From the NCBI RefSeq assembly GCF_030013205.1, contig NZ_CP122648.1: a stretch of 64,000 bases of DNA; one strand, 5' to 3'. The notes below the pieces were generated by a model. The model had not been told where the DNA came from. It ran no database searches and saw only the letters and a program-made list of their open reading frames with translations. Positions 3,845-35,025 of this stretch are shown in pieces (positions within the stretch are counted from its first letter, which is position 1; each line of letters starts with the position of its first letter). Origin of the DNA: Escherichia coli (lineage in GTDB: Bacteria > Pseudomonadota > Gammaproteobacteria > Enterobacterales > Enterobacteriaceae). The position numbers were made by a program, and so were the translations under genes.

Positions 3845-4186
3845 ATGAAACAGCAACGTAATTCACGCTTTCGTAATGGTGCTGAACGCCACGCTAACCG
3901 TTTCGCTACCAGTGCATCACGCAGCAACATCCGCTACAGCCTGAGCGAAACACACGCAACGCCGGATGGCTACCCAGTAAAACAAATCGGCGAGCACGCC
4001 TGGTTGATTGAGAAAGCTGGAATCGTGGTCCACAAATGCCCACACAATCCGTTTACCGGAAACCGCATTTTTGCACTAAGCAGCGGCGACAATCAGTTCG
4101 GACAGGATTTCACATTGTACGAAGCACTTCGTACAGTTGATCGTCTGCTTCGCGGACAAAGTTTTATTAAACAGGCTGATTTATAA
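3845..4186 (+). CDS. Hypothetical early-operon protein
   Basis: 113-aa ORF in the early operon. Confidence 0.4.
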   Translation: MKQQRNSRFRNGAERHANRFATSASRSNIRYSLSETHATPDGYPVKQIGEHAWLIEKAGIVVHKCPHNPFTGNRIFALSSGDNQFGQDFTLYEALRTVDRLLRGQSFIKQADL

Positions 4187-4196
4187 CAGGTGCTTT

Positions 4197-4475
4197 ATGA
4201 CCAAAGAGCATGCACAAGGTGTATTTATCCGTTTTATTGATTTTCGCGGTGAACTGTTATTACGCGCATCGGCTATTGATGCTGTAGTTCCGGCAGAAAA
4301 AGATGTGGCCACTTACCTTTATCTGAACGGCACGCGATTGTTTGTGGAACTTCCGTACCAGACCGTACGCGAAATCATTAACGAAGCTGAAAAGGCACGT
4401 CAGGTTAATGGCGATGAACCATATATCGAAATTATCTGCATGGATTCAGAAACTGAAATTCAGAAAGCAGATTAA
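4197..4475 (+). CDS. Hypothetical early-operon protein
   Basis: ATG at 4197 within ORF 4137..4475; 92 aa. Confidence 0.4.
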   Translation: MTKEHAQGVFIRFIDFRGELLLRASAIDAVVPAEKDVATYLYLNGTRLFVELPYQTVREIINEAEKARQVNGDEPYIEIICMDSETEIQKAD

Positions 4476-4486
4476 AGGGCGTTGCG

Positions 4487-4729
4487 ATGGGCAAAGAATA
4501 TAAAACTCTCATTAACAAAGCACTTGAGCGTTTTTATTTTCGCTTAAGTGCATCAGGCGCTCATGCTGAACGTGCAGCCCGCGACTCATTGACCAGGGCA
4601 ATTCGGAGTCTGTATGACGTGGCTTTTTACGCTGATGATCTGGATGCACTTAACGAACTTTCCGAGCTGATCTGTGCCGCAGAATGCGGGGAACATATTG
4701 AACCGTATAAGCTGGGGAATATTGCATGA
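4487..4729 (+). CDS. Hypothetical early-operon protein
   Basis: 80-aa ORF, tightly spaced in the operon. Confidence 0.4.
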   Translation: MGKEYKTLINKALERFYFRLSASGAHAERAARDSLTRAIRSLYDVAFYADDLDALNELSELICAAECGEHIEPYKLGNIA

Positions 4730-4839
4730 GTATATTTATCTCATGGCTTGTTCTGATTATTTCGGTGGCCTGCGCCATTGGGATTATGCGAATTATTAAT
4801 TCAGTAAAAAAGATTGAACGCTTTTTCACTGGTGAATAA
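4726..4839 (+). CDS. Small hydrophobic protein (37 aa, putative)
   Basis: ATGA start/stop overlap with the upstream gene; MSIFISWLVLIISVACAIGIMRIINSVKKIERFFTGE looks like a single transmembrane helix; below the ORF-track cutoff. Confidence 0.3.
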   Translation: MSIFISWLVLIISVACAIGIMRIINSVKKIERFFTGE

Positions 4840-4925
4840 CAGCGCAAATAAAACCACAGGTTAAATAAGAAAATGTAAAAACAATCCGCATTCGCGGAGG
4901 TATTCGCACACGCCAAGGAGGCGCA

Positions 4926-5129
4926 ATGGCAATTAAGCATTTTCCCGTCGTTCGTTTCACTTCCAGAGGACGTGAATACGAGGTCGACGAACGCCTGATT
5001 ACCACAATCGACAAACACCGTTCAGAACAGGATGCACATCACATCTATCTCACTGACGGCACTTACTTCTGCGCCACGAATGTGGTGCGGGTGAACCTTA
5101 TCCGACAGGTACAGGAGTCACGCAGATGA
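4926..5129 (+). CDS. Hypothetical early-operon protein
   Basis: 67-aa ORF. Confidence 0.35.
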   Translation: MAIKHFPVVRFTSRGREYEVDERLITTIDKHRSEQDAHHIYLTDGTYFCATNVVRVNLIRQVQESRR

Positions 5130-5371
5130 CCATTCTGGACTACATCGCCGCCAATCCGGGTTGTAGCGGTGGAGAAATCGCCGCAGCACTGAATACCCCA
5201 ACCACAGCCATTAATGCGGAGTTACGCCGACTCTGGCGCAGCGGTTCAGTCATAAGAAAAGAGCGCAAAACAGGCGGTCGCTTTTCTTACCAGATAAACC
5301 CGATGCCGTTCGGGTGCGGCAATCCACTTACCAACATGTTTAACCAGCTACTGAAGGAAGCCAGAGCATGA
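5126..5371 (+). CDS. Small putative DNA-binding (winged-helix-like) protein
   Basis: 81-aa ORF overlapping the stop of the previous gene; basic, HTH-like segment. Confidence 0.4.
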   Translation: MTILDYIAANPGCSGGEIAAALNTPTTAINAELRRLWRSGSVIRKERKTGGRFSYQINPMPFGCGNPLTNMFNQLLKEARA

Positions 5372-5667
5372 GCGCCATCAACCACCAGGAATTACGCGAA
5401 CTGGCGACTGACCTGCAACGAATGGCAACGCCTCAAAAATTACTGGCGTTTCGCGCAATGCTCTCGCCGTCTGCTGTGCTGGCGCTGCTGGATGAGCTGG
5501 AGCACGCCAGAACCACACCTCTCGCCATTCGCCTGACGCTCCATCATGAAATCGCTGATTTCTGCGCGACATTGGAGGCGCCAGGCGAACCGGAAACGCC
5601 GGAAGCAATACAGCAAGAGCTGCTGCAACGCATTGACAAGGTTTTTGATTTTTTTCTGAACCACTAA
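5368..5667 (+). CDS. Hypothetical early-operon protein
   Basis: 99-aa ORF with overlapping stop/start. Confidence 0.4.
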   Translation: MSAINHQELRELATDLQRMATPQKLLAFRAMLSPSAVLALLDELEHARTTPLAIRLTLHHEIADFCATLEAPGEPETPEAIQQELLQRIDKVFDFFLNH

Positions 5668-5790
5668 GAAACCAGAACATGCACACACAAAAAAACCGCT
5701 TGCCATGCCGTAATCAGTCAGGTTACATTTCCGCTGCACCTCATAAAACGGGTGCCGGGATTCTCAACCCGATACAGAGCAAAGCGCATA

Positions 5791-5810
5791 ACCGCGCCAG
5801 CGGTTTTTTT
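5791..5810 (+). terminator. Putative intrinsic terminator inside the noncoding gap
   Basis: accgc-gcca-gcggt hairpin followed by a run of seven T. Confidence 0.35.
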
Positions 5811-5989
5811 GTGCGTACTGTATTGCCACGTCTTTTTCGCGTCAGAATTATGGCGGGGCGTACGGGGCCGACTTCGGTCGGGCCGGATTCTTTGCTCTCC
5901 GGTGTTGAGAACCCTGTACGTCTCGCCACCCCGAGATTCTCAACTCTGGATGGTGAGTTATTTCTATCACCGAGCAAAGAGGCCACACC

Positions 5990-6220
5990 ATGGCAAACCG
6001 CAAACAGCACCGCGCATACGCTGCGCGTCGTCACATCCAGACTGAAATCAACCGCAGACTTTCCCGCGCATTCCGCGTCGCTAAAATCATGCACATCAAT
6101 ATGCTGCATGAGCGTAGCTGCGAACTTTCAAACCTCTATTCATCCGCTGTTTTCAGCTATCTGGCGGATGATCTGCGCGAGCTTCAGCAGCTCTTCCAGC
6201 AGCAAAACAAACCCCATTAA
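5990..6220 (+). CDS. Hypothetical protein
   Basis: 76-aa ORF preceded by an AAGAGG RBS. Confidence 0.4.
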   Translation: MANRKQHRAYAARRHIQTEINRRLSRAFRVAKIMHINMLHERSCELSNLYSSAVFSYLADDLRELQQLFQQQNKPH

Positions 6221-6292
6221 TTCCTGTTCCGGGCCTTTCCTGCACCTTGCGGCGGGAGGCCTTCGCACATCTGTAGTAAAGAGAATTGCAGC

Positions 6293-6682
6293 ATGATTGA
6301 CGCTCATGACTTCACAAGATGGGTGCGCACACAGGACACCCGTCTGGCTCCCGTTCTTCAGGGATTATTTGATCTCTACATCCGTGGTCGTGACAACAGA
6401 GCACGCACCACAAAACCGGAGAATGCAGACACCCTTTATTTCACAGTAGACGACTGCTACCGCGTGGACTTCACACCACACGGGCTGGCGTTGCACTGCC
6501 TGACACCACACGGCGAATCACTACTGGCGTATTACGACTCCCCGGCCTCCGTATTTGCGGCAATGCTGGCGCATCGCACTGCTGGCGGGTGTGCCTCGCT
6601 GAGTGAATACACCGCTGAATTTGACCGCCTTTCCGCCATCTTCTCGCAGGAGTGGCAGCGCGTGACGGGATACCAGCCATGA
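6293..6682 (+). CDS. Hypothetical protein immediately upstream of gpA
   Basis: 129-aa ORF overlapping the gpA start. Confidence 0.4.
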   Translation: MIDAHDFTRWVRTQDTRLAPVLQGLFDLYIRGRDNRARTTKPENADTLYFTVDDCYRVDFTPHGLALHCLTPHGESLLAYYDSPASVFAAMLAHRTAGGCASLSEYTAEFDRLSAIFSQEWQRVTGYQP

Positions 6683-9504
6683 GTGAGTTTGCATGGAGCT
6701 GGAATGAACCACGACCAGCCATTGATCCGGCCAGATTTACGGAGCGCAGGCAGGAAACTGAAACCGACTTGCAACGCGCCATCCGTTACTACCTTGAGGC
6801 GGACAAAAAGGCCCGGGAAGAACAGGAAGCGAAGGAGGAAGCCTTTTTCGCACAATCCGCCATGGGTAAAAAACTCATGGCATCCCTTGAGGAAGCCGGA
6901 CAGCGTGAAAAGCTGGCACAGAGCATCATCAGTAAGCGCCGGGCAACAGAACAAGACCCAGTAGCCCGTGCCTTTGCCACACTAAAGGCACTACCTGTTT
7001 ATCTGCGTGAACCACTGAGCCGCCACCTCTCTTTCCTGCGCAAAAAACAGGAAGCCGATCGCCAGAAAGGCAAAAAGAGCTGGCAGGCGGAACGCTATGC
7101 ACGCGGAACCCTGCGCAAAATATTCGAACGTCTAGATCGCACTGACGGACGCTGGCTGACACCGGGTTATCGCTCCCTTGCCGGGCGCGAACGCCTGGAC
7201 GATTTGCTTTACCTGCCGCAGCTCAACAAGCACCAGATACAGACGCTGGCCACCATGACCGCGGCGATGTTCAGCAGCACCTTCGAAACACTCTGCGATG
7301 GCTTTGGTGCCAGAGATGGCGAGCTGACCATGGATGTAATGTTGAAGGCTTACCGGATGCTGGCTCGTATCGCATTACGCCTGCACATCATGCCGCCACA
7401 TTACGAAGCCCTGAACAAGAGCGAACCGGATACGGAACTGCTGCCGGGCGCAATCCTTCGCCTGACCTGTGCGGACTGGTGGAAACGCAAACTGTGGCTG
7501 TTACGTTGCGAGTGGAGAGAAGAACAACTCCGCGCCGCCTGTCTGGTTTCCAGAAAAACATCACCCTATCTGAGCCAGGACGCGTTAAGCGAGTTTCGCG
7601 CACAGCGCGAGAAAACACGCGATTTCCTGAAAAGTTTCATGCTGGAAAATGAAGACGGGTTCACGATTGATCTCGAGACGGTGTATTACGCGGGAGTAAG
7701 TAACCCGGTTCACCGTAAGGCAGAAATGATGGCCACCATGAAGGGACTGGAACTTCTGGCCGAAGCCCGTGGCGACAGAGCGGTGTTTCTGACTGTCACC
7801 TGCCCGTCAAAATACCACGCAACAACGGAGAACGGTCATCCGAATCCCAAATGGAACGGGGCCACCATGCGCGACTCCAGCGATTACCTGGTTAACACGT
7901 TTTTTGCGGCGGTCCGCAAGAAACTGAACCGCGACGGCCTGCGCTGGTATGGCATCCGCACGGTGGAGCCTCACCATGACGGCACCGTGCACTGGCATAT
8001 GATGGTCTTTGCCCATCCGGAAGAAATCGACACCATTGTGTCCCACACCCGCGATATTGCCATTCAGGAAGATCGTCACGAGCTGGGCGATGATATTACT
8101 CCGCGCTTTAAGGCGGAGTATGTAGACGGCTCAAAAGGCACGCCAACCAGCTACATCGCCACCTACATCGGAAAGAACCTGGACAGCCGCGCCGTGGATG
8201 GCATCGACCCGAAAACAGGCAAACCACGCGTTGACCACGAAACCGGAAAATCAATGGCCGAGAGCGTGGAGCGCGCCATCGGCTGGGCGCGCCTTCACCG
8301 GGTCCGCCAGTTCCAGTTCTTTGGCATCCCATCCCGTCAGGTGTGGCGTGAACTGCGCCGCCTTGCCAGCCAGATGGCACGCAACCCGGAAGGCCCGCAA
8401 CGGCTGAAGGATGACGCAATGGACGCGGTTCTTGCTGCCGCTGATGCCGGATGTTTTGCCACCTACATTGAGAAACAGGGCGGCGTACTTGTTCCACGCA
8501 AAGACTACCTGATTCGCACCGCCTACGACCTCGCAGATGAGCTGAACGATTACGGCGAACAGAGCGTACAGATTTACGGGATCTGGTCACCACTCATCGG
8601 GGAATCCTCCCGTGTGTGCACGCACCCGGATAACTGGAAGCTGGTAAGACGTAAACCGGAAGCGGAAGACAGCACCCGCGAAAATGGTTTTGACCTTCAG
8701 GGCGGCCCTGCCGCCCCTTGGACTCGTGGCAATAACTGTCCCCGTGTACAGGAAGCAGGCAACAGCGGGACAGAACTGTCGGAAGAGCAACCAACACCGT
8801 GGCCGCAGATCCCTGACGGCGTTGATGTGGATGAATGGATGCGCTCACTGAAACGGCACGAACGCCGGGCGCTGATGCGTTCGCTGCGTGACAAACAGGC
8901 AAAAAACAGCAGTGATGAAATGCAGAGCTGGACACAGAGCCGCAAACAGCAGCGGCCTTTGCCTGATAACCACGAATTACTCGCTAAAGAATGGCGGGAG
9001 TCTGCCGAATCTCTCGGCCTGCATATCGGTGAACAGCAGATGCAGCACCTGTTACGGGGCGGCAGCCTGTACGTTGACGGCAGCATCATTGCACCGCAGG
9101 GATTTGAAATTGTACGCAAACCGGATACCCGCCCGGACAGCCGAATCACGCAGCTCTGGCAGCGCCTGAGCCGTAATCATGGCGTAAGCAGCACGGAGAT
9201 CCGCCATAACCCGGTCGCCAGCTATCTGACACAGCTGGGGGCATCAGACCCTGAAGCCGCCGCACGCCTGGCATCCACACTTCAGCAGGACCAGAACACC
9301 ATGAAAACCCCCGTTACCGTGCTTTCTGACATGCTGCGCGCCATCCGTGACGCAGAGCACGCACAGAGAATCAGTGAAACAACTGAACGCGCCCGCCGCA
9401 AAGCAGACCTGCTGCGGGGTGGCCTGATCAGTGGAAACAAAAAACAGACAGAAACGGGATTCACAAATCCCGTAAATGAGCAAAAAACGTGCCGCGATGT
9501 ATGA
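6679..9504 (+). CDS. Replication initiation protein gpA (rolling-circle HUH endonuclease, P2 A family)
   Basis: 941-aa ORF starting MSEFAWSWNEP...; contains ...DGTVHWHMMVFAHPEE (HUH-type motif); position after the early operon as in P2. Confidence 0.8.
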   Translation: MSEFAWSWNEPRPAIDPARFTERRQETETDLQRAIRYYLEADKKAREEQEAKEEAFFAQSAMGKKLMASLEEAGQREKLAQSIISKRRATEQDPVARAFATLKALPVYLREPLSRHLSFLRKKQEADRQKGKKSWQAERYARGTLRKIFERLDRTDGRWLTPGYRSLAGRERLDDLLYLPQLNKHQIQTLATMTAAMFSSTFETLCDGFGARDGELTMDVMLKAYRMLARIALRLHIMPPHYEALNKSEPDTELLPGAILRLTCADWWKRKLWLLRCEWREEQLRAACLVSRKTSPYLSQDALSEFRAQREKTRDFLKSFMLENEDGFTIDLETVYYAGVSNPVHRKAEMMATMKGLELLAEARGDRAVFLTVTCPSKYHATTENGHPNPKWNGATMRDSSDYLVNTFFAAVRKKLNRDGLRWYGIRTVEPHHDGTVHWHMMVFAHPEEIDTIVSHTRDIAIQEDRHELGDDITPRFKAEYVDGSKGTPTSYIATYIGKNLDSRAVDGIDPKTGKPRVDHETGKSMAESVERAIGWARLHRVRQFQFFGIPSRQVWRELRRLASQMARNPEGPQRLKDDAMDAVLAAADAGCFATYIEKQGGVLVPRKDYLIRTAYDLADELNDYGEQSVQIYGIWSPLIGESSRVCTHPDNWKLVRRKPEAEDSTRENGFDLQGGPAAPWTRGNNCPRVQEAGNSGTELSEEQPTPWPQIPDGVDVDEWMRSLKRHERRALMRSLRDKQAKNSSDEMQSWTQSRKQQRPLPDNHELLAKEWRESAESLGLHIGEQQMQHLLRGGSLYVDGSIIAPQGFEIVRKPDTRPDSRITQLWQRLSRNHGVSSTEIRHNPVASYLTQLGASDPEAAARLASTLQQDQNTMKTPVTVLSDMLRAIRDAEHAQRISETTERARRKADLLRGGLISGNKKQTETGFTNPVNEQKTCRDV

Positions 9505-9552
9505 AGCGCGCACAAAACAGGCAAAAGCGGGATTCCAGAATCCCGTAAACGG
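9452..9552. repeat. Two ~25-bp palindromic repeats (cgggattcNNNNaatcccgtaaa) 73 bp apart, spanning the gpA 3' end and the parM upstream region
   Basis: aaacgggattcacaaatcccgtaaa at 9452-9476 and aaagcgggattccagaatcccgtaaacgg at 9524-9552. Confidence 0.5.
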
Positions 9553-9580
9553 TTAATTAATCAACATAAGGAAAATCGAC

Positions 9581-10540
9581 ATGAAAATTTGTATCGACGA
9601 CGGCTCCACCAACATCAAGCTGGCATGGACTGAGAACGGCGAACGCCGCAACGCCATCAGCCCGAACAGCTTCAAGTCGGAATGGTCTGCGCCGTTCGGT
9701 GGCTCGCAGCCTGCGAACTACATGCTTGATGGCGTGCGCTATGGTTTTGATCCGGTCAGCGATCGCTTTGTCCAGACGACCGACACGCAATACCAGTACA
9801 GCGATGTGAATGTCATTGCCATTCATCACGCGCTGGTCAAATCAGGCATCACGCCTCAGGAGGTGGATGTGGTTGTCACCCTGCCACTGAGCGAGTATTT
9901 CGACACAAACGCACAGCCAGACATGGCCAACATCAACCGCAAAAAAGCGAACGTTATGCGCCCGGTGGAGTACCAGAACGGCGAAGCATTCACTATCCGT
10001 AACGTGCGGGTTATGCCTGAATCCATTCCGGCTGGTTTTAAGGCACTGGCTGACATGAGTCCGTTTGAATCCCTGCTGATTGTGGATTTGGGCGGAACCA
10101 CGCTGGATGTGGCAAAGGTTCAGGGGCAACTGGCAGGTATCAGCCAGGTGTTTTGCGATCCACACGTAGGCGTTTCTCTGATGGCTGATGCCGTGCTGTC
10201 GGTGATGGCCACTAACGGTATGCGTACCAGTCACCACATCGCCAATACCATTATTGAGCACCGTCACGATGAAGCCTGGCTACGCCAGCACATTCACAAT
10301 GACGCGCATTACAACAGCCTGATGGCGGTTATTCGTGAAAAGGAGGAAACACTGAAACAACGCGTGATCCGCGCGCTGGCGGGTTTTTCGGGTTACGGGC
10401 GGGTGATGGTTGTAGGTGGAGGAGCGGAGATTGTGGCACCCGCTATCCGCGAAGCCTGCGGAGTTAATGCGACTTTCATCGCGGACGGGGTGCCACAGTT
10501 TGCTCTGGTTAATGGGCTGTACGCAATGGACAAGGAGTAA
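9581..10540 (+). CDS. parM: ParM/StbA-like actin-family segregation ATPase
   Basis: MKICIDDGSTNIKLAW...ISPNSF...YSDVNVIAIHHAL...VMPESIPAG...IVDLGGTTLD...VGGGAEI...ALVNGLYAM tracks plasmid R1 ParM along its whole length (recalled alignment). Confidence 0.8.
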   Translation: MKICIDDGSTNIKLAWTENGERRNAISPNSFKSEWSAPFGGSQPANYMLDGVRYGFDPVSDRFVQTTDTQYQYSDVNVIAIHHALVKSGITPQEVDVVVTLPLSEYFDTNAQPDMANINRKKANVMRPVEYQNGEAFTIRNVRVMPESIPAGFKALADMSPFESLLIVDLGGTTLDVAKVQGQLAGISQVFCDPHVGVSLMADAVLSVMATNGMRTSHHIANTIIEHRHDEAWLRQHIHNDAHYNSLMAVIREKEETLKQRVIRALAGFSGYGRVMVVGGGAEIVAPAIREACGVNATFIADGVPQFALVNGLYAMDKE

Positions 10541-10544
10541 ATCA

Positions 10545-10859
10545 ATGACGACACCAACCAGACGGATAAGTTTCTATCTGAAGCCCGCCGTCGTCAAGAG
10601 CGAACGGGAGGCGTGCAGTTACCTCGACAGCCTGCCAGCCTCCGAACGCAGCCGCGCACAACGCGCGGCTTTTCTGGCCGGACTGGCTCTTATAAAACGC
10701 ATCCCCGCGTTGGCGTATTCGCTGGCAGAATGGTCAGAAGACGAAATAAGGATGCCACCGCTACCAGTACAGCCTGAAAAACCGGCGAAACCAGCAGCAG
10801 ACAGCGCCCCCCATATGCAGCAGGTGAAGAAGAATATTCAGGCGTTTTTTCCGAAGTGA
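10545..10859 (+). CDS. parR: ParR-like centromere-binding adaptor (putative)
   Basis: RRISFYLKPAVVKSEREACSYLDSLPASERSRAQRAAFLAGLALIKR resembles the R1 ParR N-terminal DNA-binding region; immediately downstream of parM. Confidence 0.6.
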   Translation: MTTPTRRISFYLKPAVVKSEREACSYLDSLPASERSRAQRAAFLAGLALIKRIPALAYSLAEWSEDEIRMPPLPVQPEKPAKPAADSAPHMQQVKKNIQAFFPK

Positions 10860-10873
10860 AAACAGGAGTAACT

Positions 10874-11161
10874 ATGTCCACCATTACCAAAGAATGGTTA
10901 CAACGTAAAATCACAGAGTTTAAATCGTGGCGCGAAGACATCCCGTTCGGTCTTGATGAAGACGATCACAATATGTTAATCGCACTGGAAATCGCACTTG
11001 CATCACTGGAAGCAGAGCCAGTGGCATGGATGCACGCAAATAATCCTATTGGAATACCGGCGATAACAAGAAGTAAAGATGTTGCAGACAGCTGGCGCTC
11101 TAAGGGATGGAATGTATTGCCTCTTTATTCACTGACCCGCTCCATCAATTTATGCCATTAA
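10874..11161 (+). CDS. Hypothetical protein (AT-rich moron gene)
   Basis: ATG at 10874 with an AGGAG RBS; 95 aa; lower GC than flanking phage genes. Confidence 0.4.
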   Translation: MSTITKEWLQRKITEFKSWREDIPFGLDEDDHNMLIALEIALASLEAEPVAWMHANNPIGIPAITRSKDVADSWRSKGWNVLPLYSLTRSINLCH

Positions 11162-11172
11162 TGGAAGTAATC

Positions 11173-11532
11173 ATGATGAAAGATAATTCCGGAAGCCAGC
11201 GTGCATCAGTTGCAGTTATGGTAATGATTAAATTTGTGAAACAGTACACCGGAAAGCCAATCTCGCTCCGGCAATTAAGCAAAGAAACCGTTTCACTGTC
11301 ATATCTGGAGCAAATATTCAGATATTTACGGGAAAGTAGCCTGGTAAAAGCCACACGCGGCCCGGGTGGTGGATATATCCCAACAAAAGAAAATTACAGT
11401 GTTGGTGATATTGTCCGGGCAATGAAATGTTCCGGATTATATACACAGCACGTTATTCTGGCTGCACTGGATAATATTTCTTTAACCAGCCTGCAGGAAG
11501 ACACAAATTATCAGTTGTCTGCCATTGAATAA
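11173..11532 (+). CDS. Rrf2-family (IscR/NsrR-like) transcriptional regulator
   Basis: ...SLSYLEQIFRYLRESSLVKATRGPGGGY... is the Rrf2 HTH signature; AT-rich; start uncertain (11161 or 11173). Confidence 0.6.
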   Translation: MMKDNSGSQRASVAVMVMIKFVKQYTGKPISLRQLSKETVSLSYLEQIFRYLRESSLVKATRGPGGGYIPTKENYSVGDIVRAMKCSGLYTQHVILAALDNISLTSLQEDTNYQLSAIE

Positions 11533-11535
11533 GAA

Positions 11536-11580
11536 AACCCGGAACGGGTGCGCAAATTCTTTGTGCGCCCGTTCCGGGTT
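11536..11580. terminator. Strong bidirectional hairpin terminator (21-bp stem)
   Basis: aacccggaacgggtgcgcaaa-ttc-tttgtgcgcccgttccgggtt between the convergent Rrf2 gene and the zinc-finger gene. Confidence 0.6.
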
Positions 11581-11600
11581 GGACAAGCGAAGCGCGTCAG

Positions 11601-11858
11601 CTATCCGGCCTGCAACAACTCCAGAGCCATTTGTTTTTCTTCCGGACGCATCCGCTCAATCAACAGCTTTAACACACCATTCTCCAGCCCGCTGGGCACC
11701 AGTGTGTGCGAGTAGGTCAGATTCATCACCCAGGTATGTCCGCACTCGAGACGGGTGCAACGGTAATACACATCAGCAAACTGATCGGTTTTCCAGGCTG
11801 TTTTCTCAATCACTGCATGTGCACCGCAGCAATGACATCGCGCTTTCTGTCTGCGCAT
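11601..11858 (-). CDS. Ogr/Delta-family zinc-finger late transcription activator (putative)
   Basis: C-x-CC ... C-x4-C spacing (RCHCCG...YYRCTRLECGHTW) parallels P2 Ogr; start at the Met with a GGGAGGTGG RBS. Confidence 0.5.
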   Translation of the reverse strand: MRRQKARCHCCGAHAVIEKTAWKTDQFADVYYRCTRLECGHTWVMNLTYSHTLVPSGLENGVLKLLIERMRPEEKQMALELLQAG

Positions 11859-11923
11859 TTTCCACCTCCCGGAACAGCGTTTTACTGCCACCGATTTTAC
11901 CCGCTCTTTCCCCATACCGCACA

Positions 11924-12958
11924 TCACTCCGTGGATTCGTTAAATTCAAGAATAAATTCCACCTGCCCCAGCCGTCTGATATCCGGATCGCTGTTGATCC
12001 CCTCCATAATCAGACGGCGCATCGGAATAACCTCATCTCTGTAATATGCCTCGCGGGATTTCAGTGGGTCACCAAGCCCGGCCGTATTTGCGGGAATGAT
12101 GCCGGCAAGTCCGGGTGGAAAACGGTGCGCAACGAGCTGATCCTGGGCACTGATGGTTTTTATATTCAGGAACTCATCTTTTGTGCCTGAATCCCCGATA
12201 GGGATCACCTTAACGCCTTCTTTGTCTCCGCCCGGTATATTGATAAACATGGATTTAAAATTGCCCGCCCCTTTTGACGCCTCTATCTTTTTACGGAATT
12301 CCGCCTCGAGCTCGGGATCCATGTCCGGGTCAGTGGAATACAGGATATAACCAAGATGTGCGCCGTTCTTGTAATACTTGCGGCGAAAGCGGGTGGCATC
12401 CACATTCAGCATGGCGGATTCCATCCCGTGAATATAATCCGGGACACCGTAAACCTGCTGTTGCGGGTCATAAATGGCCACGAACACCACTTCGCCTGGC
12501 GGGTAAACGAGATCTTCCAGTGCTGCCTGCACAATCACCGTGCCACCCTCGTTGTTACGCCGCAGGTACAGAGAAGGTAACGTATGCAGGCGCACCACGC
12601 GACCGAAGCCATTGCGCACTTTAAGCAACCCCATATCCCCGAATATCAGCAGATTGGTTACTGCTGCCGCCATGGCGGCGTGTGTCATACCACCACCACC
12701 CCGAAAACCCTGCATGATCATATTGACGCGCGCACGCAATACCGCGCCGTGATACGGTGCGATATTGGACAACATGGCGAGATCCATGCGCTCAATTGGC
12801 GGCGTGTACCAGCCGTTATAGCCATCCCAGAGCGAGCCGTAATAACAGCCCCATGCAGCGACCGGTTCCGGGTCACCAAATTCAATAAACGTCATTTTGC
12901 TGGCTGTTTTTTTTGCCACGCCATCGTGTAACACGGGGTATTTTTTCTTTTTACTCAT
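11924..12958 (-). CDS. Portal (capsid vertex) protein gpQ
   Basis: 344-aa ORF directly downstream of and co-oriented with the terminase ATPase, as for P2 Q. Confidence 0.8.
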   Translation of the reverse strand: MSKKKKYPVLHDGVAKKTASKMTFIEFGDPEPVAAWGCYYGSLWDGYNGWYTPPIERMDLAMLSNIAPYHGAVLRARVNMIMQGFRGGGGMTHAAMAAAVTNLLIFGDMGLLKVRNGFGRVVRLHTLPSLYLRRNNEGGTVIVQAALEDLVYPPGEVVFVAIYDPQQQVYGVPDYIHGMESAMLNVDATRFRRKYYKNGAHLGYILYSTDPDMDPELEAEFRKKIEASKGAGNFKSMFINIPGGDKEGVKVIPIGDSGTKDEFLNIKTISAQDQLVAHRFPPGLAGIIPANTAGLGDPLKSREAYYRDEVIPMRRLIMEGINSDPDIRRLGQVEFILEFNESTE

Positions 12959-14738
12959 CTGACAGGATCCATGTTGATTTGCGCTTGTGCTTATAGTTCA
13001 GGGGTTCATTACTTGCGGCATGAGCTATGGCAAAGAAGATGTCAGCGTGCCCGGTTTCTTCGCTACGTTCGGCGGTGAAAGTGACTTTATTGCCGCTGTT
13101 GGTGGATTCCTGACGAATGGCCAGGAACGATGCCGGAATATCCGTGGCTTCTTCATCCCACTCAATACGGTTGGCGTAAATCAGATCCAGCATCTTCATC
13201 ACCAGGCGGTTTTTGGATTCCACGCTGTAATGAATGGCCACTGTTTCACGGCGGGCAAATCCCTGAACCAGCTCAAAGACACCGTAGCCAAGACCGGTGA
13301 CGTCAATGCCGATAAATGTCATGTTATAGCGCGCCTTAATGCTGCGGATACGCTCTGCCATAAACTGGAATGACATGCTGCGCCAGTGGTGTTTTTCCAG
13401 CACGCGGAATCGTTCTGCCGCAACCAGCGGCGGTGCCAGCACAACAAATGTGGCGTTATCGCCGGAGCGCGCAGGGTCAAAGCCGCCCCACACTTCACGG
13501 TTACCAAATGGCATGGGCTCTTCCGGGTGAAAATCCTCCCACGTACTGACATCAACACCACAACGCACAAGATCATCGAATTTAAAGACGCTCTCTTTGT
13601 CATCCACAAACACACACATAAACAGCATATTGAACGCTGTTTCGTTGTATCGCTCGCGCAGCTCGTTGATGTCAGCAAGGTTAAAGCCGCCGGCAATGGC
13701 ATCTTCCAGCGTAACCACATAGCGCCACTGACCATCCGGACATTCACGCCCACCATCGCGCAGCTCATCAAAGGACGGAAACTCAACCCCTTTTCGTTTC
13801 GGATCGCCTTTGCGCCATTCATCGCCAGACCAGAACGGGTAACCCTGGTGTGTTTTGGATGACGGCGTGGAGAAATAGGTAATGCGCCAGTGTTTATGGG
13901 TGGCCATCCCTGATGCCACTTCATTGAGACGGCGAAAACCGGGGATCCACAGGTATTCATCAATATACAGGTGGCCGCTGTTTGACTGCGCTGTGTTACT
14001 GTTGGTCGCCAGAAAATACAGTTCAGCCAGATTACTTAACTTAACCGGATTGCCTTTAATGGGAATGCCAAACTCTGTTTGTGCAATTTTTACAATATAA
14101 GTACGGAACACTTCGGCCTGACGTTTTGATGCCGATAAAAATATCTGTGTGTCGCCGGTTAATACTGCATCTTCAAATGCCTCAAACGCGAAGTAATACG
14201 TCGCCCCAATCTGGCGGGATTTAAGCAGGTTGCGTACACGGCGGAATTTGTTTTCACGCAGATGCAACTGATAAGCAAACAACTTTTTCGTAAACGGCTC
14301 AAAACTTTCAGCAGTCAGTCCGGAAACGTCATTAGTTTTGCGGGGACGCTCTTTCTTACCTGCACCTTTTTCTCCGCGTTCTTCTTTTCCATAACGGCCA
14401 GGCTGGGGGATGTCCACTCCCATTCGCGCAATCTCAGCCATTCGTTCTGTATGCTTGTTTCTGACCGACATCAGTTTGACGTGATGACCAATCAGGCGAT
14501 CAAGCTCATCGTGTTCTTCCTGGGTCTTATGGTCACGTTCCGCCAGTACAGCGAGACGCCGGGCGATAACATCCTCCACGCCTTCCGTATTGAGCTGCGT
14601 GTACCACTCAAACTTTGTCGCCCAGTAATAAACAATTCGCGGACTGTTCAGTCCGAGTTTCTTTTGTATTTCTTTTGGTGTGTGCCTTTTCAGATAGAGT
14701 GATTTTGCTGCGGCAATCACCTCATCAGAATACGCCAT
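12951..14738 (-). CDS. Terminase large (ATPase) subunit gpP
   Basis: 595-aa ORF; size, position and divergence from the O-N-M-L operon as in P2. Confidence 0.85.
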   Translation of the reverse strand: MAYSDEVIAAAKSLYLKRHTPKEIQKKLGLNSPRIVYYWATKFEWYTQLNTEGVEDVIARRLAVLAERDHKTQEEHDELDRLIGHHVKLMSVRNKHTERMAEIARMGVDIPQPGRYGKEERGEKGAGKKERPRKTNDVSGLTAESFEPFTKKLFAYQLHLRENKFRRVRNLLKSRQIGATYYFAFEAFEDAVLTGDTQIFLSASKRQAEVFRTYIVKIAQTEFGIPIKGNPVKLSNLAELYFLATNSNTAQSNSGHLYIDEYLWIPGFRRLNEVASGMATHKHWRITYFSTPSSKTHQGYPFWSGDEWRKGDPKRKGVEFPSFDELRDGGRECPDGQWRYVVTLEDAIAGGFNLADINELRERYNETAFNMLFMCVFVDDKESVFKFDDLVRCGVDVSTWEDFHPEEPMPFGNREVWGGFDPARSGDNATFVVLAPPLVAAERFRVLEKHHWRSMSFQFMAERIRSIKARYNMTFIGIDVTGLGYGVFELVQGFARRETVAIHYSVESKNRLVMKMLDLIYANRIEWDEEATDIPASFLAIRQESTNSGNKVTFTAERSEETGHADIFFAIAHAASNEPLNYKHKRKSTWILSDE

Positions 14739-29104: not shown

Positions 29105-30397
29105 ATGAGCGCACTGTTGACGAAAGCATTTGAAAAGTGGGTTGCTGAATGCGCAGCCAGTAATTTACCTGCACGCCCTGACGCTATTATTTTTGCTCTG
29201 ATGGAGCGGGAACCAACGCGCGAAGATAATACCGTTCCGGAAGAAAAAATCACATATGCTGTGAATGAACTGACCTATGGCCAGTTAAACCCGAACAATA
29301 TTGTGTGTAGCGCGGTTGTTCCTGATGACTGTGCATTCAGCTATGACTGGATTTGCCTCATCCATCAGGCCAGTGGAACACTATGCGGCGTAATAAAAAC
29401 GTCTGTTCAACAAAAAGTAACAGGCGAGTCACTTATTCGTAATTTCACGATTATATACAGCGGCATTGCTCAGGCTGCGCAAATTACCGTTCCTCCACAG
29501 AGCTGGCAGGTGGATATTACCCCCGAGCTGAAATCAATGCTGAAAGCTCCTAACCGACTGTCAGAAATTGCAGCAGAGGGGGAAGAGGCGCAACAGGAAT
29601 CCCGAGACAATCTGGGGTTGAAAGGTGCTGCTTTGCTTGATGTTCAGAGCGATATCTACGACCGCACCGCAGGCCGTCTGGCGTTACCCGGTGCATTCGG
29701 ATACGGGCATTTATTCTCTTCGTCGGAAGTCGTGTATTTCAGCGCGCAAAATGGCCCCGCCGAATTTCTTAAATGGGTATTTGAGGTCACACCAGGGCGT
29801 TATGCGGTAACGCAGTACGGTGGTTCTGGTAATTGGTATAACCCCATCATTGCTTATGATGGGGGGAATGTATATTTCAGGGGGCTTGTAGATATAGAAA
29901 TACGAAGTGGAATGGCCACTAATGGCACCGAAAGCAATGGTCGGTGGGTAACCTTTCATGGCGATGCCGAATACACTGGCCAGTATGGTGAGGGGCCGGC
30001 TAAGTATCAGGTATTGGTTACAAAATCAATGTCTTCGGCGACACTTCCCGGGGCATGGTCGCGGCTATTCTGGTCACGCGACCGACTGAGACAACTGTTA
30101 TGTGCAGGAGATACTACATCACAGCGTGCTCCGCAACCGGGTAGCCTGGTTCTTGCCGCATACCTGCCAGATAGCGGCAGCAGTGATGTTGCGTTACTTC
30201 GTGTACAAGCTGTGCCGGGCTCAAGGCTCCGGCAGGTGGTCTTCGAAGCGGAGTACCGCAGCTCGGGATTTAGTGCCGCTGCCAGGTCGTTTGTCTATGG
30301 GAGTACCCTGCCTGGCACATACTTCGCTTTATCAGGAGGCCCGGATGTCACGTTTTATAATCGGGGACTGGTTTCTTTGTTTGTGAGGGCTACATGA
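29105..30397 (+). CDS. Tail fibre protein 2 (paralogous N-terminal domain, different C-terminus)
   Basis: N-terminal ~150 aa align with fibre 1 (PARPDAIIFAL vs PARPDTFVFAY; SLIRNFTIIY vs NLIRTFSMEF; WQVDITPEL vs WQIDFTARL). Confidence 0.6.
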   Translation: MSALLTKAFEKWVAECAASNLPARPDAIIFALMEREPTREDNTVPEEKITYAVNELTYGQLNPNNIVCSAVVPDDCAFSYDWICLIHQASGTLCGVIKTSVQQKVTGESLIRNFTIIYSGIAQAAQITVPPQSWQVDITPELKSMLKAPNRLSEIAAEGEEAQQESRDNLGLKGAALLDVQSDIYDRTAGRLALPGAFGYGHLFSSSEVVYFSAQNGPAEFLKWVFEVTPGRYAVTQYGGSGNWYNPIIAYDGGNVYFRGLVDIEIRSGMATNGTESNGRWVTFHGDAEYTGQYGEGPAKYQVLVTKSMSSATLPGAWSRLFWSRDRLRQLLCAGDTTSQRAPQPGSLVLAAYLPDSGSSDVALLRVQAVPGSRLRQVVFEAEYRSSGFSAAARSFVYGSTLPGTYFALSGGPDVTFYNRGLVSLFVRAT

Positions 30398-33920: not shown

Positions 33921-33958
33921 GCTCCCGACATAAAACCCACATAAACGCCCCATCAAAC

Positions 33959-33985
33959 AACGCACGGTTCCGACCGTGCGTTTTT
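33959..33985 (+). terminator. Intrinsic terminator after the tail operon
   Basis: aacgcacggttccgaccgtgcgtttttc hairpin plus T-run. Confidence 0.6.
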
Positions 33986-34749
33986 CATATCCACCACCTG
34001 ATTAATGCGTTCTGCGTGCCATTCCGGCGCTGTATGCACACACCGCGTAAACGGTGTGACGTAAAGTGTGAGGTGACGTAAACCGCGCTACCCCCTCCAA
34101 CCCGCGGGTTTTGTGTCGAAACAGTTTTTCAGTTTTCTGCCGTGCAAAACTGACCGCCAGCCCGCGCAGCAACTGAGGAAAAAGCGAAGATCTGAAATTT
34201 CACGCTTTGAAATTTTTTGCAGTTTTCAGAGGGATTTTTACGATCTCATGAATGGCAGGAGAAAGAAAACAGGCTGATATTAAAAGAGTTTTCATACTTT
34301 ACGTGGGACAAGACGCGATCGCGAAAGGATCGCATCAAAAAATCTTCAAACAACGAAGCCAGACGCGGCGCGGCCTGCGTAAGATTGAGAGTCAAAATTA
34401 AACTGAAAAAAGGATCAATACCGCGCCTCGATCGCACATGACGATCTACGCAGCAACAGGACAAAAAAACCGGCGCGAACGCCGGCGGAAGCATGTATCA
34501 AATGCGTGACTGAATAATGTCTACGGTCGGGAATTTTATATCAAAAGGCTGACAGGCCTCAACGGATTGAAACAAGGGAAAAAACCAGGCTAGAATTCGC
34601 GCGGGTGCCTTTCGGCTGATGGTCGGAGGGAATACCCGAAGGCCGGATGTGGAAAGGCCCCGGAAAACATTTCTGTTTAACCGAGGCCCTAACATATCTA
34701 CCTTAAGCAAGTGATAGGTTAGCGCCTCTCCAACAAAGGAGCAAGCGCT

Positions 34750-34890
34750 ATGTCGCAAAAATCGCTTACGGCCATCACGTTCTGCGTGACGGTAATCCTC
34801 ATCATCTGGATGCTGCACGGCTCGCTGTGTGAAATACGGATGAGCTTCTGGGGAGCGGAGTTTGCGGCGTTCTTACAGTGTAAACAGTAA
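34750..34890 (+). CDS. Hok/Gef-family type I toxin (46 aa)
   Basis: MSQKSLTAITFCVTVILIIWMLHGSLCEIRMSFWGAEFAAFLQCKQ carries the Hok/Gef SLCEIR...AAF signature; long structured leader upstream; below the ORF-track cutoff. Confidence 0.65.
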   Translation: MSQKSLTAITFCVTVILIIWMLHGSLCEIRMSFWGAEFAAFLQCKQ

Positions 34891-35025
34891 GGAAACCGCG
34901 ACGGGGGAGCAATCCCCCGTCAATCGGTTGCCAGGGTATGGTCGAAGTGGCACCCAAATTTAAATTGAGGCCCACCAGTAAGAGTGGTGGGCTTAACGCT
35001 TATTTAAATTTGAAAGGAACTCTTT

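What the first reader, a model, noticed from the sequence alone, without database searches (positions are those of the whole stretch)
9452..9552. Paired 25-bp palindromes (cgggattc-N-aatcccgtaaa) straddling the gpA stop and the parM promoter: candidate centromere/operator or origin
Two near-identical dyad-symmetric elements 73 bp apart bracket the region where the parM promoter must lie, analogous in position to parC of plasmid R1, although R1 parC consists of direct iterons rather than palindromes. One copy lies inside the 3' end of gene A, where P2-family origins have been mapped, so an origin role is also possible. The CGTAAA(C) core recurs in a triple repeat at 34040..34090.
Basis: seen in the sequence. 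Interest (0 to 1): 0.5.

Follow-up and report, generated by a model that had tools for sequence, protein, structure and literature searches.

The report
Centromere-like site of a phage parMR cassette
Two short mirror-symmetric DNA repeats just upstream of an actin-type partition gene pair in a P2-family E. coli prophage are most likely the docking site (centromere) for the partition adaptor protein ParR rather than the phage replication origin, which makes them a modest variant of a well-known plasmid system.

Summary
CGGGATT-N-AATCCCG occurs only twice in 64 kb (9455-9472 and 9528-9545; about 0.01 expected), 73 bp apart, inside a 39-nt direct repeat, on either side of the gene A stop codon.

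The window is a mosaic P88-like (P2-family) E. coli prophage. Downstream lie a plasmid R1-type ParM and a ribbon-helix-helix ParR (Pfam PF10784).

The best reading is a parC-type ParR-binding centromere. Hafnia and Plesiomonas phages (ParM 62-63% identical) keep two GGG-N10-CCC units at the same distance from parM, with a 56-57-nt gap whose sequence is randomised. The units travel with parMR, not with gene A: three unrelated upstream ORFs read into unit 1, and one recombination junction lies exactly at its left edge. Plasmid homologs also carry two repeat blocks upstream of parM, and each ParR β-strand type has its own repeat.

The origin reading is rejected. The P2 nick-site homolog, with an invariant CAATAACTGT, lies at 8713-8739. 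RNA hairpin and terminator readings are weak, because the 8-bp stem is specific to the E. coli lineage and shows no strand-consistent compensation. No σ70 promoter lies between the units, unlike in plasmids. The CGTAAA link to 34040-34090 is not supported.

ParR binding is inferred, not shown. This is a new variant of a known kind, of modest interest.

The parts
9438..9476 (.). Unit 1: a 39-nt repeat copy holding dyad 9454-9473 (conserved core GGG-N10-CCC at 9456-9471). It lies inside the last codons of the gene A ORF.
   Evidence: The core is conserved at -125 to -131 from the parM ATG in three lineages. The left edge coincides with a recombination junction in L054.
9477..9510 (.). Inter-unit spacer, containing the gene A stop codon at 9502-9504. 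Its length is conserved and its sequence is not. No σ70 promoter was detected.
   Evidence: The gap from CCC to GGG is 57, 57 and 56 nt in three lineages, with sequence identity at shuffled background. Promoter scans were negative.
9511..9549 (.). Unit 2: a 39-nt repeat copy holding dyad 9528-9545 (core GGG-N10-CCC at 9529-9544). It is intergenic. A weak promoter-like match, AAAACA-16-CAGAAT (9514-9541), overlaps it.
9556..9573 (+). Conserved ATTAATCAA motif plus the Shine-Dalgarno sequence (TAAGGAA) of parM.
   Evidence: TTAATCAA followed by TAAGG is shared by the window, the Hafnia locus L088 and the Plesiomonas locus L090. R1 has ATAAGGAG at the same place.
9581..10540 (+). parM, the actin-like partition ATPase.
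   Evidence: PDB 1mwk (R1 ParM) at E=7e-93; PHROG 691 'partition protein'; 46-52% identical to plasmid ParMs.
10545..10859 (+). parR, the ribbon-helix-helix adaptor (104 aa) and presumed reader of the units.
   Evidence: Pfam PF10784 Plasmid_stab_B at E=1e-23. Weak match to pB171 ParR (PDB 2JD3) over the N-terminal domain. Aligns with R1-type ParR, including the C-terminal KN..LFP tail.
6652..9504 (+). Gene A (replication endonuclease). The mechanical ORF starts at GTG 6652, and the true start is probably near 6682 by analogy with the 940-aa P88 annotation. Its last ~21 codons are par-module DNA.
   Evidence: PHROG 91; 30% identical to P2 gpA; P88 annotation; tail shared with an unrelated ORF in L054.
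8713..8739 (+). Homolog of the P2 ori nick site (GCCCCTTGGACTCGTGGCAATAACTGT) and the probable phage origin. It is not part of the dyad element and is listed because it displaces the origin hypothesis.
   Evidence: The P2 record annotates the nick at 29892. The homologous 27-mer is found in gene A of the window, P88, L088, L090, L091, L092 and L097, with CAATAACTGT invariant.

Best explanation
The two units are the cis-acting centromere (a parC-type site) of a phage-borne type II partition cassette, parMR.

Inferred mechanism: ParR is a ribbon-helix-helix protein. It binds each 18-bp YGGG-N10-CCCR dyad, probably as a dimer of dimers with one dimer per GGG/CCC half-site. The two units lie 73 bp apart, about seven helical turns, so they sit on the same face of the DNA and can form one cooperative ParR-DNA complex. 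The C-terminal tails of ParR (KKNIQAFFPK) then capture the ends of ParM filaments, which push or position circular phage genomes.

No σ70 promoter lies between the units and no plus-strand terminator separates gene A from parM. The cassette is therefore probably transcribed by read-through from the phage early operon, that is, after derepression. ParR bound at unit 2 could additionally damp any weak local promoter.

The overlap of unit 1 with the end of gene A is incidental: whichever ORF lies upstream simply reads into the par module until the first in-frame stop.

Shown: the sequence anatomy, the homology of ParM and ParR, the conservation of the units, and their linkage to parMR. Inferred: ParR binding, stoichiometry, looping, and the timing of expression.
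For: 1. The dyad pair is far beyond chance: 2 found against 0.01 expected.

2. The genes immediately downstream are an R1-type ParM (E=7e-93) and a PF10784 ParR (E=1e-23). The ParR has an RHH β-strand, TRRISFYL, and a conserved C-terminal tail.

3. In the Hafnia (L088) and Plesiomonas (L090) P2-like prophages, ParM is 62-63% identical. Two GGG-N10-CCC units sit at -128/-55 and -131/-59 from the ATG, against -125/-52 here. The gap between units is 57, 57 and 56 nt. Its sequence, and that of the left flank, are at shuffled-background identity, while the units keep 62-75% identity against about 45% for shuffles.

4. The units go with parMR, not with gene A. In L088 unit 1 lies in an unrelated 167-aa ORF. 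In L054 homology starts abruptly at ~9440, the left edge of unit 1, and an unrelated 155-aa ORF reads through it, sharing only its last 21 residues with this gpA.

5. All plasmid parMR homologs examined have two repeat blocks upstream of parM. The repeat type follows the ParR β-strand type. GGG-N10-CCC occurs only with TRR(I/V)SFYL, and Serratia and Enterobacter phages with NRKISFYL carry different 14-20-nt inverted arms. Some plasmid versions also use palindromes.

6. The right half-site AAATCCC resembles the R1 iteron AAAACCC, and the RBS context ATAAGGA is shared.

7. Published definitions fit. Type II parC is tandem repeats upstream of the operon, either continuous or split in two (PMC5016525). 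The SXT/R391 srpC site has direct and inverted 13-bp repeats bound by SrpR on an integrating element (PMC4489591).
Against: - No binding data exist. ParR recognition is inferred from position and co-occurrence.
- There are only two units, whereas R1 has ten iterons, so it is unclear whether a full ParR ring could form.
- No σ70 promoter lies between the units, unlike in plasmids, so the classical autoregulatory loop is not evident.
- Within the P88-like lineage the dyads are no more conserved than their flanks, and a common allele changes CCC to CCT in unit 2.
- Site alleles do not co-vary with the two ParR allele classes. The β-strand is invariant, however, so this test is uninformative.
- Only three lineages support GGG-N10-CCC conservation.
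- A 10.5-bp AA periodicity like that of R1 is seen here (P≈0.01) but not in Hafnia or Plesiomonas.
- A centromere on a phage that normally integrates has no obvious need.
Confidence: 0.7

Rival explanations
1. Plus-strand RNA hairpins in a polycistronic A-parM-parR early transcript. They would act as processing, stability or translational-coupling elements and not as protein-binding DNA.
For: Both units fold into 8-bp hairpins of about -11 kcal/mol on the plus strand, with z-scores of -4.1 and -2.6. Read-through from gene A is plausible because no plus-strand terminator intervenes. Some unit 2 variants keep pairing (UUU·AA·AAA versus UUC·CA·GAA, and C→U opposite G).
Against: The stem is specific to the E. 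coli lineage. The Hafnia and Plesiomonas units keep only GGG/CCC with a 10-nt 'loop' and fold weakly, at -4.6 to -6.5 kcal/mol with z-scores of -0.5 to -1.4. The commonest unit 1 variants (T→C, 31 of 80 loci) break plus-strand pairing. In the formal count the inner pairs 6-8 break rather than compensate, and overall pairing is 88.8% against 87.3% in shuffles. There is no Rfam match.
Confidence: 0.1
2. ParR operator only. The units would serve transcriptional autoregulation of parMR, for example by repressing a weak promoter overlapping unit 2, without centromere activity. The cassette would then be a degenerate or repurposed remnant.
For: Weak promoter-like matches overlap unit 2: AAAACA-16-CAGAAT here and TTCATT-18-TATATT in Hafnia. 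Only two units are present. The host element integrates into the chromosome (P88 carries an integrase).
Against: ParM is kept at ≥98% identity across hundreds of loci, and the ParM-binding tail of ParR is conserved, which argues for a working motor-adaptor pair. In characterised type II systems the operator and the centromere are the same DNA (PMC5016525). The promoter matches are only 7-8 of 12 positions and do not share a position across lineages.
Confidence: 0.12
3. Tandem minus-strand intrinsic terminators that stop leftward transcription from entering gene A.
For: On the minus strand each hairpin is followed by a T-rich tail (TTCTGTCTGTTTTTTG and CTTTTGCCTGTTTTGTG), and both are flagged by the consensus scan.
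Against: Two hits were found against 1.2 expected in shuffles, so the scan is permissive. No leftward promoter or gene lies between here and the portal gene about 2.4 kb away. Minus-strand fold z-scores are weak, at -2.7 and -0.8. The frequent CCC→CCT allele in unit 2 destroys minus-strand pairing. Neither hairpin nor T-tail is conserved in Hafnia or Plesiomonas.
Confidence: 0.03
4. Replication origin or other gpA recognition site, as suggested by the first reader.
For: P2-family origins lie inside gene A (P2 record), and unit 1 is inside the gene A ORF.
Against: The P2 nick-site homolog is at 8713-8739 (22 of 27 identical to the P2 27-mer; 15 of the 20-nt core GCGCCTCGGAGTCCTGTCAA). Its CAATAACTGT is invariant in gene A of seven phages whose gpA is only about 30% identical to P2's. 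The units occur downstream of ORFs other than gene A in L054 and L088. Serratia and Enterobacter phages have the ori homolog but different par repeats.
Confidence: 0.03

Closest known systems
parC of plasmid R1 (the type II ParMRC centromere; Dam & Gerdes 1994, as summarised in PMC5016525)
   Same: It lies directly upstream of parM and is followed by parR. It is split into two blocks ending just before the same ATAAGGA ribosome-binding context. ParM is homologous (46-52% identity) and ParR is homologous (PF10784). The half-site AAATCCC resembles the R1 iteron AAAACCC.
   Different: R1 has 5 + 5 direct 11-bp iterons flanking a clear σ70 promoter (TTGATT-16-TAAACT in the R1-like locus L082). Here there is one 18-20-bp dyad per block and no recognisable promoter between the blocks. 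The left block is overlapped by an upstream coding sequence.
srpC of SXT/R391 integrative conjugative elements (SrpMRC, PMC4489591)
   Same: It is a type II partition cassette on an element that normally integrates in the chromosome. The cis site upstream of the ParM-like gene consists of a few (four) short direct and inverted repeats bound by the adaptor, and half-sites alone do not bind stably.
   Different: SrpR has no detectable similarity to ParR, whereas the protein here is a clear PF10784 ParR. The carrier is a conjugative element, not a phage. The repeat sequence and layout are unrelated.
alpS / AlpAC of the Corynebacterium glutamicum prophage CGP3 (PMC5539076)
   Same: It is a prophage-encoded actin-like motor plus DNA-binding adaptor with repeated adaptor sites upstream of the operon. 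It is induced early and is proposed to move replicating phage DNA.
   Different: The actin-like family and the adaptor are unrelated. alpS is a short TTAAnnG motif repeated about seven times in a promoter region. The host is Gram-positive.
P2 ori (the nick site inside gene A, NC_001895 position 29892)
   Same: Both lie within the 3' part of the gene A reading frame of a P2-family phage.
   Different: There is no sequence similarity to the dyads. The true homolog lies at 8713-8739. The dyads are linked to parMR, not to gene A.

Membership tests
Type II (ParMRC) partition locus | Actin-like ParM ATPase | tested here: met
   PDB 1mwk R1 ParM at E=7e-93 over residues 2-316; PHROG 691; homologs carry Pfam StbA_N/ParM_N.
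Type II (ParMRC) partition locus | Small ribbon-helix-helix adaptor ParR encoded immediately downstream of parM, with a C-terminal ParM-binding tail | tested here: met
   Pfam PF10784 at E=1e-23; weak match to pB171 ParR 2JD3 over the N-terminal domain; alignment with R1-type ParR shows the conserved β-strand R6/F10/P14 and the C-terminal N97/F102 tail. The RHH fold itself was not modelled.
Type II (ParMRC) partition locus | Repeated cis site (parC) directly upstream of parM | tested here: met
   Two units at -125 and -52, conserved in position and spacing in three lineages.
Type II (ParMRC) partition locus | ParR binds the repeats specifically | not testable with these tools
   This requires EMSA, footprinting or ChIP. 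The only indirect support is the one-to-one association of ParR β-strand type with repeat type.
Type II (ParMRC) partition locus | The par promoter lies within or next to parC and is autoregulated by ParR | tested here: inconclusive
   No σ70 match at standard stringency. Only 7-8 of 12 matches overlap unit 2, whereas plasmid homologs score 8-10 of 12 in the core between blocks.
Type II (ParMRC) partition locus | Stabilises a replicon and exerts incompatibility | not testable with these tools
   This requires plasmid-loss and incompatibility assays.
R1-type parC architecture (two sets of five 11-bp direct iterons) | Multiple tandem 11-bp direct iterons in each block | tested here: not met
   Each block has one 18-20-bp dyad within a 39-nt repeat, and no tandem 11-bp family was detected. 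A 10.5-bp AA periodicity is present here (P≈0.012) but not in the Hafnia or Plesiomonas orthologs.
P2-family replication origin | Sequence homologous to the gpA nick site (GCGCC^TCGGAGTCCTGTCAA) inside gene A | tested here: not met
   The dyads show no similarity to it. The homolog is at 8713-8739 and is conserved in all related gene A sequences.
Rho-independent terminator | GC-rich hairpin followed immediately by a U-tract, at the end of a transcription unit | tested here: not met
   On the plus strand there is no U-tract. On the minus strand there is a T-rich tail but no upstream transcription unit, the fold z-scores are weak, and the feature is not conserved in orthologs.

The most novel reading that the evidence does not exclude
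The cassette is a promoter-less, minimal two-dyad centromere system wired into the P2-type early operon. ParMR would then be made only after derepression, and actin-like filaments would actively separate or position excised and replicating phage genomes in E. coli. This would be an enterobacterial, R1-derived counterpart of CGP3 AlpAC or SXT SrpMRC, and would show that two dyads suffice as a type II centromere.
Probability: 0.3. Interest if true: 0.55.

Novelty: new variant of a known kind. Interest (0 to 1): 0.3.

Why it matters
Type II partition systems are textbook plasmid machinery, and their role on an integrating temperate phage is not understood. This cassette is very common: the ParM clusters P0001 and P0002 have 1,308 and 4,287 member sequences. 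It sits in the variable slot between gene A and the portal gene, the slot occupied by tin and old in P2, in phages of at least five genera.

Defining its cis site gives a concrete handle for testing three things: whether ParMR moves phage DNA, whether two dyad units are enough for a centromere, and when the system is expressed. These can be addressed by mutating GGG/CCC, by EMSA, and by replicon-stabilisation assays.

The analysis also corrects where the origin should be sought, at 8713-8739. It shows that the last 21 residues of this gpA are an accidental read-through into par-module DNA.

Tried and rejected
1. Origin hypothesis: rejected after mapping the P2 nick-site homolog.

2. RNA structure: folding of both strands in three lineages, enumeration of natural variants, a formal pair count and an Rfam scan gave no conserved or compensated helix beyond GGG/CCC.

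3. Minus-strand terminators: no leftward transcription unit exists, and terminator-like hits occur at chance rate.

4. Co-variation of ParR alleles with site alleles among 80 P88-like loci: none found. The β-strand is invariant, so the test is uninformative.

5. Within-lineage conservation profile: the dyads are not more conserved than their flanks at this shallow depth.

6. A-tract phasing like that of R1: present here but not in the Hafnia or Plesiomonas orthologs, so it is not used as evidence.

7. Defence-system reading of the cassette and its neighbours: no PADLOC match.

8. Link to the 34040-34090 repeat: rejected.

9. Wider sampling. The single-protein viral scan returned only near-identical loci. 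The species-representative genome scan returned 25 loci with no new GGG-N10-CCC lineage. The ParR protein search returned almost only Escherichia variants.

10. The Salmonella plasmid copy is just an integrated prophage and gives no independent support.

11. Literature: in the held library I found no description of the cis site. The two P88/φSM papers I opened contain no ParM description, and one lists a partition protein only as an annotation.
Full report
**1. The observation**

The sequence at 9438-9560 contains two near-identical dyads. Unit 1 is ACGGGATTCACAAATCCCGT (9454-9473) and unit 2 is CGGGATTCCAGAATCCCG (9528-9545). Each is followed by TAAA and embedded in a 39-nt direct repeat (9438-9476 and 9511-9549; 82% identity; 73 bp start to start). 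The pattern CGGGATT-N2-6-AATCCCG occurs twice in the 64-kb window and nowhere else, against 0.01 expected. The long ORF ending at 9504 is the P2-type replication endonuclease gpA (PHROG 91; 30% identical to P2 gpA). The next gene (9581-10540) is a close structural homolog of plasmid R1 ParM (PDB 1mwk, E=7e-93). The following 104-aa protein (10545-10859) is a PF10784 'plasmid stability' ParR (E=1e-23). It has a ribbon-helix-helix-type N-terminus and aligns weakly to pB171 ParR. The symmetric part is 18-20 bp, not 25 bp.

**2. Context**

The window is E. coli DNA, 100% identical to strains RM10740 and ETEC4079 over a test stretch. It carries a P2-family prophage whose early, replication and par module (about 3866-10704) is 88-95% identical to phage P88 (Xuanwuvirus). 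The structural module is not P88-like at the DNA level. The gpA-parM-parR arrangement is annotated in all 14 related phage records, with no cis site annotated in the P88 record.

**3. Is it the origin?**

No. The P2 record annotates the ori nick at 29892, inside gene A and 434 nt before its stop. The gpA alignment places that stretch at window 8713-8739. There the DNA reads GCCCCTTGGACTCGTGGCAATAACTGT, against P2's GCGCCTCGGAGTCCTGTCAATAACTGT. The same 27-mer is found in gene A of P88 and of the Hafnia, Plesiomonas, Serratia and Enterobacter phages examined. CAATAACTGT is invariant in all of them, and the site lies 329-791 nt from the stop. Nucleotide conservation of this kind, between proteins only about 30% identical to P2 gpA, marks the functional ori. 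It lies about 740 bp from the dyads.

**4. Do the units belong to gene A or to parMR?**

They belong to parMR. ParM relatives of intermediate divergence were traced to their contigs. P2-like prophages of Hafnia (ParM 62%), Plesiomonas (63%), Serratia (58%) and Enterobacter (54%) all carry parMR in the same slot, after gene A and before the portal gene. In Hafnia a 167-aa ORF lies between A and parM, and unit 1 lies in that ORF. In Enterobacter two other genes intervene.

Among the P88-like loci, L054 is decisive. Its homology to the window begins abruptly at ~9440, the left edge of the 39-nt unit 1. Upstream, gene A has already ended, and an unrelated 155-aa ORF reads through unit 1 to the same TGA. 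That ORF and this window's gpA share only their last 21 residues. The Hafnia ORF is unrelated to both. The coding overlap is therefore an accident of whichever ORF abuts the par module.

**5. Conservation**

In the window, Hafnia and Plesiomonas, a GGG-N10-CCC unit occurs at -125/-52, -128/-55 and -131/-59 from the parM ATG. The gap between units is 57, 57 and 56 nt. Its sequence, and that of the left flank, are at shuffled-background identity. The 16-nt units retain 62-75% identity against about 45% for shuffles.

What is conserved is YGGG, a 10-nt centre with an A-rich right half (AAATCCC, AAAACCC, GAAACCC), CCCR, and usually RNAAAYG on the 3' side. It is not the 8-bp stem. Within each genome the two units resemble each other, for example GGGACAACAAAAACCC and GGGACAACACTAACCC in Plesiomonas. 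This is expected if one protein reads both.

**6. Comparison with plasmid systems**

Upstream regions of plasmid parMR homologs (ParM 40-52% identical) all show two blocks of repeats around a clear σ70 promoter. In the R1-like locus L082 these are 5 + 5 units of (A/C)AAAC(A/C)ACCC around TTGATT-16-TAAACT.

Repeat type follows the ParR β-strand type:

| ParR β-strand | Repeat upstream of parM |
|---|---|
| RRTIAFKL (R1) | AAAACCC-type iterons |
| RRKI(T/M/Q/L)FY | TTCTC-type iterons |
| NRKCSFYI | TATTTTTCT-type iterons |
| SRRCSFEL | TACATTGCATGTA palindromes |
| NRKISFYL (Serratia and Enterobacter phages) | 14-20-nt inverted arms, 26-28 nt apart |
| TRR(I/V)SFYL | GGG-N10-CCC units, and only with this type |

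This one-to-one association is the best available indirect evidence that ParR reads the units. It matches the published definition of type II centromeres: tandem repeats upstream of the operon, continuous or split, with each ParR dimer binding one repeat (PMC5016525). It also matches the integrating SXT/R391 elements, whose srpC has four direct and inverted 13-bp repeats (PMC4489591).

**7. Differences from the plasmid paradigm**

The phage site has one dyad per block rather than five direct iterons. No σ70 promoter lies between the blocks at standard stringency. Relaxed scoring gives only 7-8 of 12 matches, overlapping unit 2, and these are not positionally shared across lineages. No plus-strand terminator separates gene A from parM. 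I infer that parMR is mainly expressed by read-through of the early operon, that is, after derepression. This would fit an integrating phage and resemble CGP3 alpAC, which is induced early (PMC5539076). This step is an inference.

**8. RNA and terminator rivals**

In E. coli both units can form hairpins of -10 to -11 kcal/mol on either strand, and the minus-strand versions are followed by T-rich tails. The evidence against these readings is as follows.

- The Hafnia and Plesiomonas units fold weakly, with z-scores of -0.5 to -1.4.
- Among 80 P88-like loci the frequent stem variants are single transitions. They would preserve pairing only on the minus strand in unit 1 (T→C, 31 of 80) and only on the plus strand in unit 2 (C→T, 19 of 80). 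This is what unconstrained transitions give.
- In a formal count over 28 distinct units only G4-C17 and G5-C16 are invariant, the inner pairs break rather than compensate, and pairing is 88.8% against 87.3% in shuffles.
- No leftward promoter or gene could feed a minus-strand terminator.
- There is no Rfam match.

**9. The 34040-34090 repeat**

This repeat consists of GTGACGTAAA twice, 17 bp apart, plus CGCGTAAAC. It lies between a terminator downstream of a tail or baseplate gene and a hok/gef locus. It has no GGG-N10-CCC unit. CGTAAA occurs 49 times in the window. The orthologous Hafnia and Plesiomonas units do not even keep CGTAAA. P88, which has the dyads, has no counterpart of this region. 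The link is not supported.

**10. Limits**

ParR binding, stoichiometry and any centromere activity are untested. Only three lineages carry the GGG-N10-CCC type. Within the P88-like lineage the dyads are not more conserved than their flanks. Site alleles do not track ParR alleles, though the β-strand is invariant. The 10.5-bp AA phasing seen here (P≈0.012) and in R1-like parC (P≈0.010) is absent in Hafnia and Plesiomonas.

The literature held here mentions the partition genes of P88 and φSM only as annotations. I found no description of the site, but the library is incomplete.

**11. Verdict**

The finding is a real, non-random element. It is most likely (about 0.7) the parC-type ParR-binding centromere of a phage-borne R1-family parMR cassette, in a two-dyad, apparently promoter-less variant. 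It is not the P2-type origin. The novelty is a new variant of a known kind, and the interest is modest (0.3).

Noticed in passing
window 8713-8739: This is the homolog of the P2 ori nick site (GCCCCTTGGACTCGTGGCAATAACTGT). CAATAACTGT is invariant in gene A of seven P2-like phages whose gpA is only about 30% identical to P2's. It is the probable origin of this prophage.
   Followed up: yes
window ~9440-9504; L054 2957-3424: The last ~21 codons of this gpA are par-module DNA. In L054 an unrelated 155-aa ORF carries the same 21-residue tail, and the mosaic junction sits at the left edge of unit 1.
   Followed up: yes
window 10545-10859 (DNA homology to P88 ends near 10704): ParR is hypervariable among Escherichia P88-like prophages: 45-91% identity, with two allele classes already differing in helices 1 and 2 and an unalignable linker. 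ParM stays ≥98% identical and the β-strand TRRISFYLKP is nearly invariant. A recombination boundary lies in mid-parR.
   Followed up: partly
window 34040-34090: GTGACGTAAA occurs twice, 17 bp apart, plus CGCGTAAAC, in a non-coding gap between an intrinsic terminator (33956-33990) and a hok/gef locus (~34579-34955). Its function is unknown, and it has no megablast match in the phage collection.
   Followed up: partly
window ~3866-10704 versus the rest of the prophage: The prophage is mosaic. Only the early, replication and par module is P88-like at the DNA level. The structural genes (portal 11924-12958, terminase 12951-14738, and the tail genes) show little or no blastn similarity to P88.
   Followed up: partly
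L091 3887-3940; L092 3883-3950; L097: Serratia and Enterobacter P2-like phages have a different presumed parC: 14-20-nt inverted arms (GGGAACGAAATAGAAAAAT) separated by 26-28 nt. They are paired with a ParR whose β-strand is NRKISFYL.
   Followed up: partly
window 9556-9564; L088 and L090 equivalents: ATTAATCAA, immediately upstream of the parM Shine-Dalgarno sequence, is conserved in three lineages whose neighbouring DNA has diverged. It could be a -10-like element, a leader element or part of the ParR site.
   Followed up: no
window 10856-12190: Three ORFs of unknown function (101, 141 and 221 aa) fill the rest of the variable slot between parR and the portal gene, the slot occupied by tin and old in P2. 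They have no PADLOC match and only 'unknown function' PHROGs.
   Followed up: partly
L120 (NZ_CP110658.1, Salmonella pS2122_1, IncHI2): A complete P88-like prophage (C repressor-like and Cox regulators through capsid genes, including gpA-parM-parR) is integrated in a 272-kb plasmid.
   Followed up: partly
L094, L100, L106 (a MAG labelled Collinsella sp.) and L109 (labelled Lachnospiraceae): Contigs with enterobacterial P88-like or plasmid parMR loci are binned into Gram-positive MAGs. This is most likely mis-binning or contamination.
   Followed up: no
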